IMG/VR virus record: IMGVR_UViG_3300045988_153745
Source: a virus
Direction: 5' to 3' (one strand)
Length of the DNA: 64,000 nucleotides
Shown: in pieces, positions 52,572 to 56,610 of the stretch
Position numbering within the stretch: the stretch's first letter is position 1
Layout: the number at the start of each line of letters is the position of its first letter
Notes under the pieces: model-generated
Seen by the model: only the letters and a program-made list of their open reading frames with translations
What the model was told of the DNA's origin: nothing
The model's database searches: none
Position numbers and translations under genes: made by a program

Positions 52572-52790
52572 AAATATGTCCTCCTTTTACTTTTCTACAT
52601 AAATTATATCATATTTTTTTATAAAAATCAAGCGGCGTTACGCTCTTTAAAGAAACTTGTAGGGGCCTATCATGAATTTTATAGACCCAACAGCCGCAGT
52701 AAGAAAAATAAGGGTTAATTAGAGAAAACGAAGGATTTTTTAATTTCCGGACAAAGACGATTATCTGTAAGTGAAAATGTAGAAATCCAC

Positions 52791-52819
52791 TTGAAAAAAA
52801 AGAAAAAATTTGATATAAT
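52791..52819 (+). promoter_or_regulatory. Plus-strand promoter at the strand switch, TTGAAA-17-TGATATAAT
   Basis: ttgaaa aaaaagaaaaaatttga tataat, followed by an AGGAGG ribosome-binding site and an ATG at 52844. Confidence 0.6.
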
Positions 52820-52843
52820 ATTATTGTAAGGAGGAATAAAAGA

Positions 52844-53017
52844 ATGAATATTGTTTGTGATGTAAATTGTAAATATAGAAGTTCCAATGGCTTTTGTATA
52901 AAAGACATTGTTCATATAGATAATAGATGTATTTGTAATGAAATGTATAAACCAACAGAGAAGATTGAGCGGAAACCGCAGATTGGTGAAACTTTAATCT
53001 TGACTGAAGAAACTTAA
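52844..53017 (+). CDS. Small Cys-rich protein, first gene of the plus-strand cluster
   Basis: 57 aa (MNIVCDVNCKYRSSNGFCIKD...) with a strong AGGAGG site. It is not in the supplied ORF track because it is under 60 aa. Confidence 0.5.
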   Translation: MNIVCDVNCKYRSSNGFCIKDIVHIDNRCICNEMYKPTEKIERKPQIGETLILTEET

Positions 53018-53031
53018 AGGAGGGTTTCCGC

Positions 53032-53235
53032 GTGACATTAGAAGAATTAGCAGAAGAATTAGGTGTGAAACCTAATTATTTAAGGAAAAGATTTCAAGAT
53101 GTTAAGAAGAATAGAGAAAAGATAGGTATAATTATTGAAAAAGTAGGAAGAGCGGCTTCCGCGGAATATGGTATAAAAACATGGTATGATAGTGAAATTA
53201 GATATGAACATCTTGACCCAGATGATTTTGAATAA
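53032..53235 (+). CDS. Small HTH-like protein with a GTG start
   Basis: 67 aa. It has an AGGAGG site, and its N-terminus is paralogous to the N-terminus of 53786..54568. Confidence 0.5.
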   Translation: MTLEELAEELGVKPNYLRKRFQDVKKNREKIGIIIEKVGRAASAEYGIKTWYDSEIRYEHLDPDDFE

Positions 53236-53250
53236 AAAAGGAGAAAACAA

Positions 53251-53493
53251 ATGAGTAACAAAAGAACAGTAAAGGAGATATTGACTCCTAATGAATACAT
53301 GGCATATGAAGCAATTTTAAAGAAATTAGTTCAAGGAGAACAAACTTGTGTAAATGTTTCACATTTTGCAGATGAAATACACCTTTCCCGCACAAGTATT
53401 AGTAGTATGTTAAAGAAACTAGATTTGATTGGTGTTTTTGAAGTTAAAAGTGCGGGAATGAGAGGAACTTATATTAAGTTTTTACCTAATTAA
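53251..53493 (+). CDS. Winged-helix HTH transcriptional regulator
   Basis: 80 aa. SRTSISSMLKKLDLIGVF is an HTH recognition-helix-like segment. The ribosome-binding site is AAGGAG. Confidence 0.55.
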   Translation: MSNKRTVKEILTPNEYMAYEAILKKLVQGEQTCVNVSHFADEIHLSRTSISSMLKKLDLIGVFEVKSAGMRGTYIKFLPN

Positions 53494-53699
53494 AGAAGAT
53501 ATTACTTTGGATTTCTCAAAGAGAATGAGAGGATTAATAAGATTGGAGCGAAGCGGAAATCTTTTAATCCCGAATTCTCATTTGAAAATCCAAGACTTAG
53601 AGATGCGAACTTGTTCGCATCGACTTTATATAAAGAGTATTGAGTTTTTAAATTATTTATATTTAGGAAGTTAAAAGTTCAATACTCTTTATATAAAAA

Positions 53700-53765
53700 A
53701 TGGAAAAAGTGTCACAAACTTTTAACTTGCGGAAGAATAATTATTTAAAATTGTGACACTTTTAT
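53700..53765. promoter_or_regulatory. Operator-like inverted repeats around the GTGTCACA core
   Basis: GTGTCACAA...TTGTGACAC is a 9-bp inverted repeat with a 33-nt spacer. There is a third GTGTCACA at 54683, and a TATAAAGAGTATTGA/TCAATACTCTTTATA inverted repeat at 53630..53700. Confidence 0.5.
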
Positions 53766-53785
53766 ATAAAGGAGCATAGTGAATA

Positions 53786-54568
53786 ATGAATATAAAAGAA
53801 GTAAGTGAAGCTTTAGGAATTGCGGAATCAACATTAAAAAACAATTATAAAAGAACTGCGGAAAGTTTATTAAAAAAAGGTATTATTTTAAATAAAGAAG
53901 GAAGAGGCATTTCCGCGGATTATACAATAGAATATGATATGAGTTTTAAAGATAATAGAGCTTTAACTATATTTGATGAAAAGAAAGAAATATATTTACA
54001 AGATGATATGTTAAAGATGATAGATTGGAATCTCTTGGTATTAGTAGGAGTTTGTTTAACGCCTTTGTTAACTTTTAGAGGAAGTTATAAAGATTTTTTA
54101 AATTATGTTGGAGTATTACCATCCGCCGCGAATATTAATAAGTTAAAGGAAGTATTAGTTGAAATGGATGCTGATTATATTGGTTATTATCCTGATAAAA
54201 CAGATGAACAATATTTTACCGCGTCTTTATATAGGAGTGTTGAGAAGAAATATAAGGTTTCAATTATTAAGTTGCGGAAATGTAAAGAAATTCAAGAAAA
54301 ATATCATGGGAGAAGCTTCATTCCGCTATTGAAAACTTGGTTAGCTACTGAGGAGGCAGTAAAGAATCAACCTTATACTATTGATGATTTGATTGAATTG
54401 ACAGGATTATCTAAGAGTACTATTGTTAAAGCTAATAGGCAATTAAGAGATGAAAATGTTTATAGGTCAGAGAAAGATTATATTCCAGAGATGAAAATAT
54501 GCCGAGGGGTAAATACTGATATCAATGGATTTTTTGATGAAATCCCAACAGATTTACCTAGAAAATGA
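53786..54568 (+). CDS. Protein with an N-terminal HTH, a candidate regulator
   Basis: 260 aa. The N-terminal 50 aa resemble the 53032 product (EALGIAESTLKNNYKRTAESLLKKGIILNKEGRGISADYTIEYD). Confidence 0.55.
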   Translation: MNIKEVSEALGIAESTLKNNYKRTAESLLKKGIILNKEGRGISADYTIEYDMSFKDNRALTIFDEKKEIYLQDDMLKMIDWNLLVLVGVCLTPLLTFRGSYKDFLNYVGVLPSAANINKLKEVLVEMDADYIGYYPDKTDEQYFTASLYRSVEKKYKVSIIKLRKCKEIQEKYHGRSFIPLLKTWLATEEAVKNQPYTIDDLIELTGLSKSTIVKANRQLRDENVYRSEKDYIPEMKICRGVNTDINGFFDEIPTDLPRK

Positions 54569-54923
54569 ATTTTAACTTACCTATATATAAGTATATATAT
54601 ATTGGTAAGTTAAAATATAAAAAATGAATGAATCTGTTGGGATTTTAGATAAATGTGATATTTTTATGTATGATAAAAGAAAGTGTCACATTTTATAAAA
54701 ATAGGGGTTATGTAATAATAAGAATATATTAAAATACAATAAAAATAACAAAAATAGGAGTTGTGCTGTAAATATAATATAATATAATTATATTAAATTA
54801 TAGTAAAATAGGAGTTGTGCTGTGCGCAGCCCCTATCTCCCATATAGCTTTTTATTATTCGATTGAAATTCTAAGAAGACGAATATCGTCTATCCCGGGG
54901 TGTATATATAAGGGGAGGGTATA

Positions 54924-55250
54924 TTACATAACTCCCCTAAGAAAATCTCTGATTGCATCCTCTGAATCTAAATCTGGAGTTTTCTTTATCTTAACATTAT
55001 CTAATGAAGCAATAAGCTTCTCTCCTTCGATTAGTGCATTCCTTAACTCAGCAATCTCCGCAGAGGAAACCATATCCTTCTTACCTGAAACAGCTTCAAA
55101 GTATGTAACGATAGCTTTAAGAAGAGCTTCTCTCTCTGTCTTAAATCTGTCAATCTCCGCGTCCTTCTTCTTCTTAATCTCTTTAGCCTTTCTCATAATA
55201 TCTGTAAGACTCATTCCTGCATCTAACATCTCTTCAATAGTTTTACTCAT
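54924..55250 (-). CDS. Hypothetical coiled-coil protein
   Basis: 108 aa. The overlapping plus-strand ORF 54817..55287 is judged spurious. Confidence 0.45.
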   Translation of the reverse strand: MSKTIEEMLDAGMSLTDIMRKAKEIKKKKDAEIDRFKTEREALLKAIVTYFEAVSGKKDMVSSAEIAELRNALIEGEKLIASLDNVKIKKTPDLDSEDAIRDFLRGVM

Positions 55251-55379
55251 ACTTTTTATCTCCTTTTCTTTTATATATATATTATAACATAAATTTTTAT
55301 ATATTTCAAACGCGGCAACCGCGCGATATAAAATTAAATAGGTGCGAAGGGTTCTTCATATCCCCGCAATACGATTGCT

Positions 55380-55660
55380 TTTGTTAGATATAAAATTTTA
55401 GCTTATTTTTTGTGTTATCTCTTACTAAGGGTACCTGTAAGGATTTTACGCTAAAATTTTAAGACCAAATTTTGTGTATACGGTTAGTTAAGGACTAGGA
55501 AAAAATTTGGTCTTAATTTTTTGGATAAGTCGCATACATAAAAATACACAAAATTAATAATATGCCGCATGTAAGAGCACTACAAGGTGGAATTTCCCGA
55601 ATTTTTGTGTATGTGGTTAATATTATAGATATACACAAAAATTCGGGAAAAAATAGGTGT
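55380..55660. repeat. Cluster of inverted and direct repeats built on TTTGTGTAT/ATACACAAA and GACCAAATTT/AAATTTGGTC cores
   Basis: CCCGAATTTTTGTGTAT pairs with ATACACAAAAATTCGGG, and TAAAATTTTAAGACCAAATTTT pairs with AAAAAATTTGGTCTTAATTTTT. The region has no ORFs and lies upstream of the plus-strand gene at 55755. Confidence 0.55.
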
Positions 55661-55754
55661 CTCTTTGGACAAAACTAAATAAAAGGTATTCAATACTTTT
55701 TATATATTATTGGAAAAGACAAAAAGTCTTTTATCATATAAAAGGAGAAAACAA

Positions 55755-56399
55755 ATGATTATTTTAACACGAAACGAATTAAATCAAAAATATAGTATTA
55801 CAAAAAATATATGGAATACTAGACATGATGATTTAATAGACCATCTTCAAGATTTTATGGACATTAAAGAAATAAAATCTGAAAGAGGTCGTTACACTTA
55901 TGAGATAGAAGGAGAGATGCCCGAATCTATTCCAAAATTACCTCGCAAGTGTAACTTAGAACAAAAGAAAAAAGATTATGAAGATTTTACTATTAAAGCT
56001 TTAGGTACAGAATTTAAACCTAATAGTAAATCTAAAATTGCGCGCGAAGCTATTTCTTCTTTCGGTAGAGAGAGATATGGTCATTACTCTCAGCGCTCTG
56101 TAACAGAGAGATATGTAAAGGAACCGTTTGATAAATATGGCGTAACTAATAATCACCAGGTATGGGTAGATTATAAAACATATAAGCCGTTATCTGCGGA
56201 AGTTCTTACTGATTGGCGCAATATACTGAAAGAAGAAAGAATAGATGAAGCGGCTGCTGCCAAAGCATTCTATCGTGAACAACAAGGAGAAGATATTTCT
56301 CAAGAAAAAAGCTTCTATAAGTGCGCGCTTGAGAGATTTAAAACGAAATATAATACAATGCCTATATTAGTAAAAGAGTGGAGAGCTAACAGGGATTAA
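55755..56399 (+). CDS. Hypothetical protein, a possible replication or regulatory factor
   Basis: The ATG at 55755 has the same ribosome-binding site (AAAAGGAGAAAACAAATG) as the 53251 gene. The supplied track started the ORF earlier, at 55710. Confidence 0.5.
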   Translation: MIILTRNELNQKYSITKNIWNTRHDDLIDHLQDFMDIKEIKSERGRYTYEIEGEMPESIPKLPRKCNLEQKKKDYEDFTIKALGTEFKPNSKSKIAREAISSFGRERYGHYSQRSVTERYVKEPFDKYGVTNNHQVWVDYKTYKPLSAEVLTDWRNILKEERIDEAAAAKAFYREQQGEDISQEKSFYKCALERFKTKYNTMPILVKEWRANRD

Positions 56400-56610
56400 G
56401 CGGCAGGAGTCGCTTTTTCCTCCACAAACAAGCCCTAAAGGAACATCCGCGATTTCGGGAACATGGGAAAAAGTGAGATAATGACTTTTTCCCTCGGAAA
56501 ATTGCCCTAAAGGGAGATGGGTGGGAAATTCCGACTTTGTCGGTCGGGCGCAGCCCGTTCTTTTACATAACTAATTTAATAGTCATATAACATCACAAAA
56601 GAAGAAGCCA

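What the first reader, a model, noticed from the sequence alone, without database searches (positions are those of the whole stretch)
52600..56600. Strand-switch control island with HTH genes, GTGTCACA operators, iteron-like repeats and a GC-rich repeat
This is the only place where genes run on the plus strand. It holds three small HTH or Cys-rich ORFs and a 260-aa protein with an N-terminal HTH. Inverted repeats around GTGTCACA lie at 53709, 53751 and 54683. A palindrome GCGAACTTGTTCGC lies at about 53610. Three direct repeats AAAATAGGRGTTRTG lie at 54695-54830. A dense set of inverted repeats on TTTGTGTAT lies at 55380-55660. Two GC-rich GCCCTAAAGG direct repeats lie at 56400-56580. This looks like a replication origin and/or a master regulatory switch, possibly an early/late or lysis/lysogeny-like decision, or the genome terminus.
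Basis: seen in the sequence. Interest (0 to 1): 0.55.

Follow-up and report, generated by a model that had tools for sequence, protein, structure and literature searches.

The report
Phage control island: DNA-binding protein plus origin-like repeats
This is a real control region, conserved across a family of uncultured ~150-kb phages, built around a self-regulating DNA-binding protein whose own recognition sites sit next to an easily melted palindrome; it is most likely the phage's replication origin with its initiator, but that is not proven.

Summary
Comparison with about 60 related loci shows a conserved module. Small HTH genes and a ~250-aa protein made of tandem winged helices (p260) sit on the opposite strand to the rest of the genome.

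Each p260 variant has its own 10-14-bp site. That site brackets the gene's own promoter and recurs just downstream, beside a conserved AT-rich palindrome with a (TA)n centre. Next come a tract almost free of C that carries phased direct repeats, then convergent promoters, then a GC-rich element that is probably a minus-strand non-coding RNA.

One close relative has swapped p260 and its operators for an unrelated HTH protein with a one-base-different operator.

My best reading (0.45) is an initiator/origin module laid out like Inc18 plasmids, with the origin directly downstream of the initiator gene. The main rival (0.33) is a purely transcriptional switch at a boundary between two promoter classes.

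A lysogeny switch and a genome terminus are not supported. p260 belongs to no described family; its resemblance to Rep_3 initiators is weak. Moderately interesting: a new variant of a known kind.

The parts
52603..52631 (-). Promoter of the leftward operon (TTGATT-17-TGaTATAAT), one copy of the uniform extended promoter family. A GC hairpin at 52630-52645 lies just upstream of it.
   Evidence: repeat D3
52791..52819 (+). Strong sigma-A-type promoter (TTGAAA-17-TGaTATAAT, 11 of 12) for the three small plus-strand genes. It is divergent from 52603-52631.
52844..53017 (+). p57, a small Cys-rich protein with no family match.
   Evidence: 91-94% identical in L001 and L002
53032..53235 (+). p67, a small HTH protein and a paralogue of the N-terminal domain of p260.
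   Evidence: BLASTP E=1e-8, 35% identity over 48 aa; homologues lie upstream of the p260-type gene in L005, L006, L007 and L010
53251..53493 (+). p80, a small winged-HTH protein of the CodY-HTH type.
   Evidence: Pfam HTH_CodY E=2.4e-9, 37.1 bits against a 27-bit cut-off; weak match to PHROG 8102 'replication initiation protein', E=1.3e-4
53602..53621 (+). Terminator-like hairpin GATGCGAACTTGTTCGCATC that ends the small-gene operon. It is also the left boundary of the swappable p260 cassette.
   Evidence: conserved in L001 and L002, and homology with L002 stops just after it
53625..53697 (.). Long AT-rich palindrome with 30-nt arms that are 90% complementary. It belongs to the p260 cassette: present in L001, absent in L002.
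   Evidence: I3; z=-9.5 together with the terminator hairpin
53706..53762 (.). Operator pair AAAGTGTCACAA (53706-53719 on +, 53749-53762 on -) bracketing the p260 promoter TTAACT-18-TAAAAT (53722-53751).
   Evidence: replaced by AAAGAGTCACAA sites together with the gene in L002
53786..54568 (+). p260, a site-specific DNA-binding protein: an N-terminal winged HTH, a disordered linker, then two more winged-helix domains. Candidate initiator or autoregulator.
   Evidence: (pLDDT 81.6); the family has 322 clusters
54540..54645 (.). Nested palindrome. The outer inverted pair is ATCCCAACAGATT (54540-54554 and 54631-54645). The inner AT-rich palindrome TTTTAACTTACC-(TA)n-GGTAAGTTAAAA is at 54569-54616. 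Candidate unwinding or cruciform element.
   Evidence: DNA fold -27.3 kcal/mol, z=-10.1; CCCAACAG occurs 6 times against 0.65 expected; the palindrome is conserved in form and partly in sequence in 21 of 36 loci
54651..54693 (.). Downstream p260-type sites: a degenerate copy at 54651-54664 (-) and an exact AAAGTGTCACATTT at 54680-54693 (+).
   Evidence: (I10, I16); decayed in L002 and absent in L001
54694..54822 (+). Tract almost free of C (3.1% C) carrying three phased direct repeats AAAATAGGRGTTRTG at 54698, 54751 and 54805.
   Evidence: 4 copies in L002 and 4 in L001+L003; the C-poor tract is present in 7 of 8 relatives
54808..54836 (.). GC hairpin formed by the last repeat and an inverted partial copy (ATAGGAGTTGTGCTGTGCGCAGCCCCTAT). 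It closes the C-poor tract.
   Evidence: equivalent GC hairpins at the same position in L005, L006, L019, L028, L053 and L059
54924..55250 (-). p108, a small helical protein convergent with p260. Found only in the close relatives.
55281..55325 (-). Promoter of p108 (TTGAAA-17-TGtTATAAT, 55309-55281), preceded by the GC hairpin CGCGGCAACCGCG (55311-55325). It reads towards the repeats and the palindrome.
   Evidence: 78% identical to the 52586-52634 block (D3); conserved in L002 and L003
55453..55650 (.). Two long palindromes (55453-55522 and 55593-55650) built on four copies of TTTTGTGTA. The outer arms differ between relatives while staying complementary.
   Evidence: (I2, I18)
55755..56399 (+). 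p214 (listed as a 229-aa ORF from TTG at 55710; ATG at 55755 with an AAGGAG ribosome-binding site is the likelier start). An HTH-like N-terminus that varies between relatives; no family match.
   Evidence: (D13)
56400..56570 (-). GC-rich conserved element containing the two GCCCTAAAGG units. Candidate minus-strand non-coding RNA. Its terminal hairpin (56545-56557) also serves as the plus-strand terminator of p214.
   Evidence: (D9); no Rfam family
56601..56623 (-). Intrinsic terminator of the rightward-lying minus-strand genes (p112m at 56611-56949). It marks the right edge of the island.
   Evidence: p112m is the conserved right-hand neighbour in 12 or more loci

Best explanation
The island is a self-contained DNA-control module, conserved across a diverse family of uncultured phages of about 130-150 kb. 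Their promoters and ribosome-binding sites look Firmicute-like.

Its core is p260, a protein of three winged-helix domains. It recognises a short site specific to its lineage (AAAGTGTCACAA in this window). An inverted pair of that site brackets the protein's own promoter, so the protein should repress itself.

Further copies lie just downstream of its stop codon, next to a conserved AT-rich palindrome with a (TA)n centre. After that come a G-rich tract almost free of C with phased direct repeats, and then an inward-facing promoter.

I read this as the phage's replication origin together with its initiator, in these steps:
1. p260 binds beside the palindrome.
2. The palindrome melts or extrudes.
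3. Transcription entering from the p260 gene, or from the convergent promoter at 55309, helps open it. It may also leave a G-rich RNA primer (an R-loop) on the C-less tract.

The small HTH proteins upstream (p67, p80) would set the level. This layout matches Inc18 plasmids: copR, then repR, then oriR directly downstream with an essential inverted repeat.

Shown here: the anatomy, its conservation, the co-variation of sites with protein, and the cassette swap. Inferred: DNA binding by p260, autoregulation, and above all any role in replication.
For: 1. Sites track the protein. In 36 loci the promoter-proximal 9-mers recur within 350 nt downstream in the same locus far more often than across loci: 31% against 2.3% share three or more. 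The motifs differ from locus to locus around a common N3-ACAA-W core. Loci whose proteins have near-identical recognition helices share the motif TTCAAACAA.

2. The sites act locally. Full 14-nt matches (AAAGTGTCACAWTT, 0 mismatches) occur only at 53749 and 54680, and 3 of the window's 5 GTGTCACA cores lie in the island; in the 10-kb related loci the cognate motifs are almost confined to the gene's flanks.

3. The layout is conserved: an inverted pair or palindromic operator at the promoter, then site, palindrome, inverted site, further direct site(s) downstream.

4. The downstream palindrome is conserved in form and in arm sequence (..CTTRAC..(TA)n..GTYAAG..) whatever the site specificity. 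It scores 10 or more in 21 of 36 loci, its arms are 14-35% GC, and it mostly lacks a T-run. In the window its fold z-score is -10.

5. A tract of 2.4-4.5% C follows in 7 of 8 relatives. In the window it carries 3 exact repeats spaced 53-54 nt, and the close relatives have 4 copies.

6. Cassette swap. L002 is 93-96% identical on both flanks but carries an unrelated 239-aa HTH protein with its own AAAGAGTCACAA sites.

8. The Inc18 paradigm is described in PMC4981023.
Against: - There is no direct replication signal. GC skew flips only with the local coding strand and resumes the same sign on both sides.
- No helicase, loader, primase or polymerase gene lies next to the island.
- p260 has no significant match to any initiator family. 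The window protein gives no Rep3 hit. The top fold matches are generic winged helices (TFE-alpha, MarR, Fur).
- In the window, the pair that actually flanks the palindrome is CCCAACAG, not the promoter operator GTGTCACA.
- L001 has the same protein at 99% identity but lacks the downstream GTGTCACA site.
- L002 keeps the palindrome and the repeats without p260. Either they do not depend on p260, or they are relics there.
- Site spacing of 50-110 bp is wider than in classical iterons.
- Everything listed as evidence for the origin reading is also compatible with a repressor that controls convergent transcription.
Confidence: 0.45

Rival explanations
1. The island is a purely transcriptional switch. 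p260, and p239 in L002, would be autoregulated repressors or activators. Their sites at their own promoter and at the downstream palindrome would control read-through and the collision between rightward transcription and the leftward promoter at 55309. The small HTH proteins and p214 would be further regulators. The island would mark the boundary between two temporal promoter classes.
For: - All identifiable domains are HTH or winged HTH of regulator type.
- The sites bracket a promoter.
- Promoters left of the island, about 20 copies, share a long uniform consensus TTGATTTTTATAAAAA..TATGwTATAATATwTATATAA. Those to the right (58-63 kb) are canonical TTGACA-17-TGnTATAAT.
- Convergent promoter pairs occupy the same position in L019, L028 and L053.
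- Exchange of regulator and operator as a unit, with specificity shifted by one base, is typical of phage immunity-type modules.
- L002 keeps the palindrome and repeats while using a different protein.
Against: - The sites are almost confined to the gene's own flanks, so this is not a global regulator.
- A conserved AT-rich palindrome with a (TA)n centre, flanked by specific sites and followed by a C-less repeat tract, is not what a simple operator or terminator needs. The stems are 14-35% GC and mostly lack T-runs.
- It is unclear why a virulent-looking phage would diversify the specificity of a local autoregulator so strongly: 322 clusters at 50% identity, with a different motif in nearly every lineage.
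Confidence: 0.33
2. The island is the physical genome end or the packaging-initiation region (pac, cos or terminal repeat). The repeats and GC-rich units would be terminase recognition sites.
For: - The related 150,460-bp contig begins and ends inside the repeat zone, with an ~80-nt end overlap.
- Several metagenome contigs stop within 0-3 kb downstream of the p260-type gene.
- Arrays of short repeats near a strand switch recall T7-type ends (from my own knowledge).
Against: - The overlap is imperfect only in the number of TA units, which is how an assembly breaks at a microsatellite.
- A second relative (144,972 bp) and the window itself read straight through.
- No terminase genes lie nearby.
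- Contigs also break upstream of the gene and inside it.
Confidence: 0.07
3. The island is a lysogeny-type immunity region or a plasmid-prophage maintenance region, with a repressor and anti-repressor or a partition centromere.
For: The genes lie on the opposite strand. The HTH proteins have operator pairs. Swaps resembling heteroimmunity occur. Centromere-binding proteins also autoregulate through repeated sites (from my own knowledge).
Against: - No integrase, S24 peptidase-type repressor, anti-repressor, ParA or ParM was found among the island proteins or the 20 larger proteins scanned.
- The genome has the look of a large virulent phage: 26 tRNAs, one dominant transcription direction, and many reiterated promoters.
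- The family has no hit in 72,556 plasmids or 50,697 GenBank phage records.
Confidence: 0.05

Closest known systems
Inc18 theta-plasmid replicons (pIP501 copR-repR-oriR; pAMbeta1 copF-repE-ori)
   Same: A small HTH regulator gene lies upstream. The initiator gene has a regulated promoter. The origin lies directly downstream of the initiator gene and contains an inverted repeat. Convergent or antisense transcription forms part of the control. Transcription runs from the rep gene into the origin (PMC4981023, compared).
   Different: p260 is ~30 kDa and made only of winged helices, whereas RepR/RepE is 57 kDa. I detected no sequence relationship. Here there are several specific sites plus a repeat tract, rather than one binding site. 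Replication function is untested. The context is a ~150-kb phage, not a plasmid.
Rep_3 iteron initiators (pPS10 RepA, F RepE, R6K pi) and their origins
   Different: The window protein has no Pfam Rep3 match, and the homologues give only sub-domain-level hits. p260 has an extra N-terminal winged HTH. Its sites are 10-14 bp spaced 50-110 bp, not 19-22-bp tandem iterons. The generic winged-helix regulators score as well or better in fold searches.
Lambdoid O-protein/ori modules and heteroimmune repressor-operator cassettes
   Same: A DNA-binding protein and its cognate sites are exchanged as one mosaic unit between close relatives, with shifted specificity (GTGTCACA against GAGTCACA).
   Different: The sites are not inside the gene, as they are in lambda ori. 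There is no S24-type repressor and no divergent PR/PRM operator arrangement. The only hit is one weak Phage_rep_O match, E=7e-4 and below the cut-off, in one distant family member.
R-loop-primed origins (ColE1 RNA II; T4 ori(uvsY) and ori(34); T7 primary origin). This comparison rests on my own knowledge.
   Same: A promoter reads into an easily unwound AT-rich element. The non-template strand is G-rich and C-poor, which would stabilise an RNA-DNA hybrid.
   Different: There is no evidence for such a transcript or hybrid here. In the window clade, two genes (p108 and p214) are inserted between the promoters and the AT-rich DNA.

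Membership tests
Rep_3 iteron initiators (Pfam Rep3_N / Rep3_C) | Sequence match to the Rep3 profiles above the curated threshold | tested here: not met
   The window protein has no Rep3 hit at E<=0.1. Seven of 16 homologues give weak hits. The best is P0007: 26.4 bits summed, no single stretch passing, aligned to the N-terminal HTH region only. Ten distant members give none.
Rep_3 iteron initiators | A two-winged-helix fold that superposes on RepE, RepA or pi | tested here: inconclusive
Rep_3 iteron initiators | An inverted-repeat operator at the gene's own promoter plus repeated copies of the same site beside AT-rich DNA | tested here: met
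   Seen in the window and in L005, L006, L012, L014, L018, L019, L030, L037, L040, L053 and L059. Spacing is wider than in classical iterons. In the window the palindrome is flanked by a different pair, CCCAACAG.
Rep_3 iteron initiators | Supports origin-dependent replication | not testable with these tools
   Needs cloning or marker-frequency data.
Inc18 RepR/RepE-oriR replicons | Initiator homologous to RepR/RepE (~57 kDa) | tested here: not met
   p260 is 260 aa. No family matched above the cut-off in Pfam or PHROGs, and the PDB sequence search gave only E>=0.5. tblastn against 72,556 plasmids found nothing.
Inc18 RepR/RepE-oriR replicons | Origin with an inverted repeat immediately downstream of the rep gene, a small HTH repressor gene upstream, and an antisense or convergent RNA | tested here: inconclusive
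   The architecture is present: the palindrome starts at the stop codon, the small HTH genes lie upstream, and a convergent promoter sits at 55309. Function, and the existence of an antisense RNA, are not shown.
Lambdoid immunity region (CI/Cro type) | Repressor with an S24 peptidase domain, divergent operators shared by two repressors, and an integrase in the genome | tested here: not met
   No such domains were found in the 10 island proteins or the 20 larger window proteins scanned. The rest of the ~150-kb genome was not available.
Intrinsic (rho-independent) terminators | A GC-rich stem-loop followed by a T-run | tested here: met
   53602-53621 (+), 56545-56557 (+) and 56623-56601 (-). Seven were found against 1.9 expected in shuffles. 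The AT-rich palindromes at 53625-53697 and 54569-54616 do not fit this definition.
Any Rfam RNA family (for the hairpins and the GC-rich element) | Covariance-model match | tested here: not met
   Only sub-threshold hairpin noise (miRNA models) in the window island. Nothing but a tRNA in five related loci.

The most novel reading that the evidence does not exclude
The island would be a previously undescribed type of phage replication origin. It would be run by a new family of three-winged-helix initiators, related to Rep_3/pi at most distantly, whose site specificity is hypervariable between co-circulating phages in the manner of plasmid incompatibility groups. The origin would combine protein-specific sites, a conserved (TA)n palindrome and a C-less tract prone to R-loops. 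It would be accompanied by a conserved, promoter-driven GC-rich non-coding RNA of about 200 nt that is in no RNA database.
Probability: 0.3. Interest if true: 0.65.

Novelty: new variant of a known kind. Interest (0 to 1): 0.45.

Why it matters
Origins and early control circuits are unknown for almost all large uncultured gut and rumen phages. Three consequences would follow if this module is the origin:

- It gives a portable, recognisable signature (a p260-type gene, cognate sites, a (TA)n palindrome and a C-less tract) for locating origins in hundreds of metagenomic phage genomes.
- It provides a set of naturally orthogonal protein-site pairs.
- It suggests that related phages compete through replication or regulatory specificity, as plasmids do through incompatibility.

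Even if the module is only regulatory, two things are new and testable. One is the protein family: 322 clusters and no annotation. The other is the conserved GC-rich transcript.

Tried and rejected
- Megablast of the island against GenBank phages, and tblastn of p260 against phages and plasmids, found nothing. There is no cultured reference.
- Pfam, PHROGs and the PDB sequence search for p260, p239, p214, p108 and distant family members gave only generic HTH signals.
- The Rfam search of the island and of five related loci found no family.
- RNAalifold on a MAFFT alignment of the GC-rich element predicted no consensus pairs, because the alignment is too poor. I therefore did not build a covariance model. 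The case for RNA rests on promoters and on hairpins with different stems.
- The GC-rich 150 nt, folded as plus-strand DNA, is no more stable than shuffles (z=-0.9).
- I considered whether the downstream palindrome is two face-to-face promoters, because its arms contain TTGAC/TTAAC. I rejected this: the spacing to any -10-like hexamer is wrong in L011 and L028.
- I considered whether the AAAATAGGAG repeats are ribosome-binding sites. I rejected this: the distance to GTG or TTG is 2-3 nt, and the only ORF there is antisense to p108.
- I considered the contig end in the repeat zone as a genome terminus. I rejected this as a microsatellite assembly break.
- I looked for a genome-scale inflection in GC skew and found none in 64 kb.
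- hhalign of p239 against the p260 family matched only the first 17 residues. p214 against the p260 N-terminus gave E=0.049, which is only suggestive.
- The afdb50 fold library was unavailable.

Full report
**Context.** The window has 30-36% GC. It carries 26 tRNA genes, GyrB, PhoH-PIN, an RNA ligase, a vault-like protein and a tail-spike-like protein. Every ORF of 150 aa or more lies on the minus strand except those in the island.

Two close relatives exist in IMG/VR. One is a 150,460-bp contig whose two ends overlap by about 80 nt, differing only in the number of TA units; it is therefore a circular assembly broken at a microsatellite. The other is a 144,972-bp contig that reads straight through the region. 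No GenBank phage or plasmid matches. The only cultured-database hits for a neighbouring gene are uncultured huge phages.

**Check of the observation.** All listed features are present.
- GTGTCACA occurs 5 times in 64 kb against 0.55 expected, and three copies are in the island.
- The AAATAGGRGTTRTG pattern occurs 3 times against 0.01 expected, spaced 53 and 54 nt.
- Four of five TTTTGTGTA copies lie at 55470-55640, inside two palindromes with fold z-scores of -4.3 and -9.2.
- GCGAACTTGTTCGC is the stem of a terminator-like hairpin.
- The two GCCCTAAAGG copies are not significant alone, but they belong to a 34-nt repeat and to a conserved element.
- The small ORFs are a Cys-rich 57-mer, a 67-aa HTH protein and an 80-aa CodY-type winged HTH. 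The 260-aa protein has HTH signals at both ends.
- GC skew turns positive only where the coding strand flips, then returns to the same negative value. It does not mark a genome-scale inflection.

**Transcription map.** This is inferred from consensus scans.
- A divergent promoter pair sits at 52603-52631 (-) and 52791-52819 (+, 11 of 12 matches with an extended -10). The plus-strand promoter drives p57-p67-p80.
- Two strong hairpins follow at 53602-53621 and 53625-53697.
- p260 has its own weaker promoter at 53722-53751.
- A minus-strand promoter at 55281-55309 drives p108 towards p260, so the two are convergent.
- p214 probably starts at ATG 55755. It ends at a plus-strand terminator at 56545-56557.
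- The minus-strand terminator at 56601-56623 closes the island.

About 20 promoters to the left of the island share one long, uniform consensus. Those to the right are canonical TTGACA-17-TGnTATAAT. The island therefore also sits at a boundary between two promoter classes.

**The p260 family.** Word-indexed and exhaustive HMM searches found 134 proteins at E<=1e-5 and 322 clusters at 50% identity. All are about 250-290 aa with the same architecture and no fused domains. Sources annotate them at most as 'hypothetical' or 'Lrp family regulator'.

AlphaFold models (pLDDT 73.5, and 81.6 with a 55-sequence alignment) show three parts: an N-terminal winged HTH (residues 1-50), a disordered linker, and two more winged-helix domains (residues 80-246). 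p67 is a paralogue of the N-terminal domain (E=1e-8).

**Sites co-vary with the protein.** I examined 36 loci from metagenomes, mostly rumen and gut. The promoter-proximal 9-mers recur within 350 nt downstream of the same gene in 31% of loci (three or more shared), against 2.3% for mismatched locus pairs.

Each lineage has its own motif:

| Locus or loci | Motif |
|---|---|
| L005 | TTTCGACAATT |
| L006 | AATTGTCGTAA |
| L012, L018 | TTCCAACAA |
| L019, L030, L033, L053 | TTCAAACAA |
| L040 | TTTCCGACAA |
| L037 | AATYCAGACAAAA |
| L059 | ATTGGGG |
| window | AAAGTGTCACAA |

The proteins that share TTCAAACAA have near-identical recognition helices. The motifs are almost confined to the gene's flanks.

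The usual layout is an inverted pair or palindrome at the promoter. Downstream come one site, a palindrome, an inverted site, and one or two further direct sites.

**The downstream palindrome.** It starts within about 0-100 nt of the stop codon. Its arms have a shared sequence (..CTTRAC.. / ..GTYAAG..) and its centre is a (TA)n run. It keeps this form whatever the site specificity of the locus. Its stems are AT-rich and it usually lacks a T-run, so it is not a normal terminator.

In the window it lies at 54569-54616 and is nested inside a second inverted pair, ATCCCAACAGATT. The combined fold z-score is -10, and CCCAACAG occurs 6 times against 0.65 expected. The GTGTCACA-type sites follow at 54651 (degenerate) and 54680.

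**The cassette swap.** L002 is 93-96% identical to the window on both sides. Between the terminator at 53621 and position ~54530 it carries a different 239-aa HTH protein. hhalign matches only the first 17 residues of that protein to p260. It has three to four AAAGAGTCACAA sites of its own. The window-type downstream site has decayed in L002 to GTGTTACACA. L001 has p260 at 99% identity and the same promoter operators, but no downstream GTGTCACA site.

These comparisons tie GTGTCACA to p260. They leave open what binds the CCCAACAG pair, the palindrome and the repeats, all of which persist in L002. Candidates are the conserved p67 or p80 proteins or a host factor, and the elements could be relics in L002.

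**The repeats.** The three AAAATAGGRGTTRTG copies lie in a 129-nt tract with 3.1% C, against 19.5% for the window's plus strand. The close relatives have four copies. Seven of eight relatives examined have a tract of 2.4-4.5% C at this position, up to 290 nt long in L005, and it always ends in a GC hairpin. L019 has three GRAAGTTGTYA sites spaced 51-52 nt at the same place.

**The TTTTGTGTA palindromes.** Their outer arms differ between the window, L002 and L003 while staying complementary, and the inner motif is kept in the window and L002. The flanking N-terminus of p214 also differs between these genomes. Selection for a hairpin, or self-correction of palindromes, could both explain this. 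I could not assign a function.

**The GC-rich element.** An HMM built from its core finds it in 15 or more loci, always in the minus orientation. Seven of those loci have a perfect TTGACA-17-TGnTATAAT promoter positioned to transcribe it leftwards. The predicted 5' end is a hairpin that closes just before GAAU and is built from eight different stem sequences.

Conserved words are CCATATGG-AATTTTTT and TTCCCGAAA. The window's two GCCCTAAAGG units are the local version of an internal duplication. No Rfam family matches, and RNAalifold found no consensus on the crude alignment. I regard it as a candidate non-coding RNA of about 200 nt.

In the window clade its promoter looks weak, and its terminal hairpin doubles as the plus-strand terminator of p214.

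**Interpretation.** The module combines five features:
- an autoregulated, locally acting, site-specific binder;
- cognate sites beside a conserved melt-prone palindrome directly after its gene;
- a phased repeat tract with extreme strand asymmetry;
- inward-facing promoters;
- exchange of protein and sites as a unit.

This is the architecture of initiator/origin modules, closest in layout to Inc18 plasmids (PMC4981023) and in logic to iteron replicons. I commit to that reading at 0.45.

The same facts fit a local transcriptional switch at a promoter-class boundary (0.33). A terminus or pac site (0.07) and a lysogeny or partition region (0.05) are poorly supported. No replication signal was available, and none of the binding events has been shown.

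**Conservation of the island as such.** In 10 of 14 loci with full flanks, the p260-type gene and one to three small upstream ORFs are on the opposite strand to the genes on both sides. Examples are L005, L006 and L059, the last at only 32% protein identity. The Cys-rich minus-strand gene p112m is the usual right-hand neighbour, 1-2.3 kb away. p108 and p214 are insertions specific to the window clade.

Noticed in passing
window 2259-52631 (minus strand) compared with 58423-63248: About 20 copies of a very uniform extended promoter (TTGATTTTTATAAAAAwwTATGwTATAATATwTATATAA) lie left of the island. Right of it the promoters are canonical TTGACA-17-TGnTATAAT. These look like two temporal promoter classes, and conservation beyond the -35 and -10 boxes hints at a phage-encoded factor.
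   Followed up: partly
window 58608-58680 and 61767-61840 (+): Two plus-strand consensus promoters are each followed by a short GC-rich double hairpin and a T-run (ACCGGCGAAGCCGGACGCCTTCCAGGCG..TTTT). They are candidate plus-strand small RNAs of about 45 nt. They lie inside ~250-nt intergenic blocks repeated four times (58410-58660, 60243-60486, 61649-61833, 63181-63393). Similar units occur in L019, L028, L053 and L059.
   Followed up: partly
window 8367-10868 (-) and 11409-13001 (-): An 833-aa protein carries major-vault-protein shoulder and repeat domains, and next to it is a 530-aa SPFH/flotillin-like protein. The only GenBank phage hits (39-44% identity) are uncultured huge phages of 462-735 kb, LR756500, LR756501 and LR756503.
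   Followed up: partly
window 22053-41676 (-): 26 tRNA genes on the minus strand, interspersed with copies of the uniform promoter. An HNH endonuclease gene lies among them at 37635-38363.
   Followed up: no
L001 6985-7040 / L003 1-81 (ends of IMGVR_UViG_3300014039_000016): The two contig ends overlap by about 80 nt but differ by two TA units. The (TA)n run between the third and fourth repeat is therefore length-polymorphic in the population, and it breaks the assembly.
   Followed up: yes
L005 6095-6676 and 6745-7035: This relative has a PARG-like (poly-ADP-ribose glycohydrolase) gene inserted after the p260-type gene. It is followed by a 290-nt tract with 3% C and 34% G, made of degenerate ATAGG/GTGA repeats. 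This is the most extreme form of the C-less tract.
   Followed up: partly
window 51529-52571 (-) and 56993-57373 (-), plus paralogues near 62.6 kb: Paralogous gene pairs flank the island. p181 and p171 are both coiled-coil proteins with a C-terminal CxxC motif. p126m has a 60% identical copy, seen at L002 14216-14590 and L003 6846-7220 (about 62.6 kb in window coordinates). This suggests duplicated early-gene families.
   Followed up: no
window 55311-55400: A 90-nt stretch just upstream of the p108 promoter is 95% or more conserved in all three close genomes. It contains three small GC hairpins (CGCGGCAACCGCG, GCGAAGGG..CCCCGC, GCAATACGATTGC). It may be the left remnant of the ancestral GC-rich element, split by insertion of p214.
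   Followed up: no
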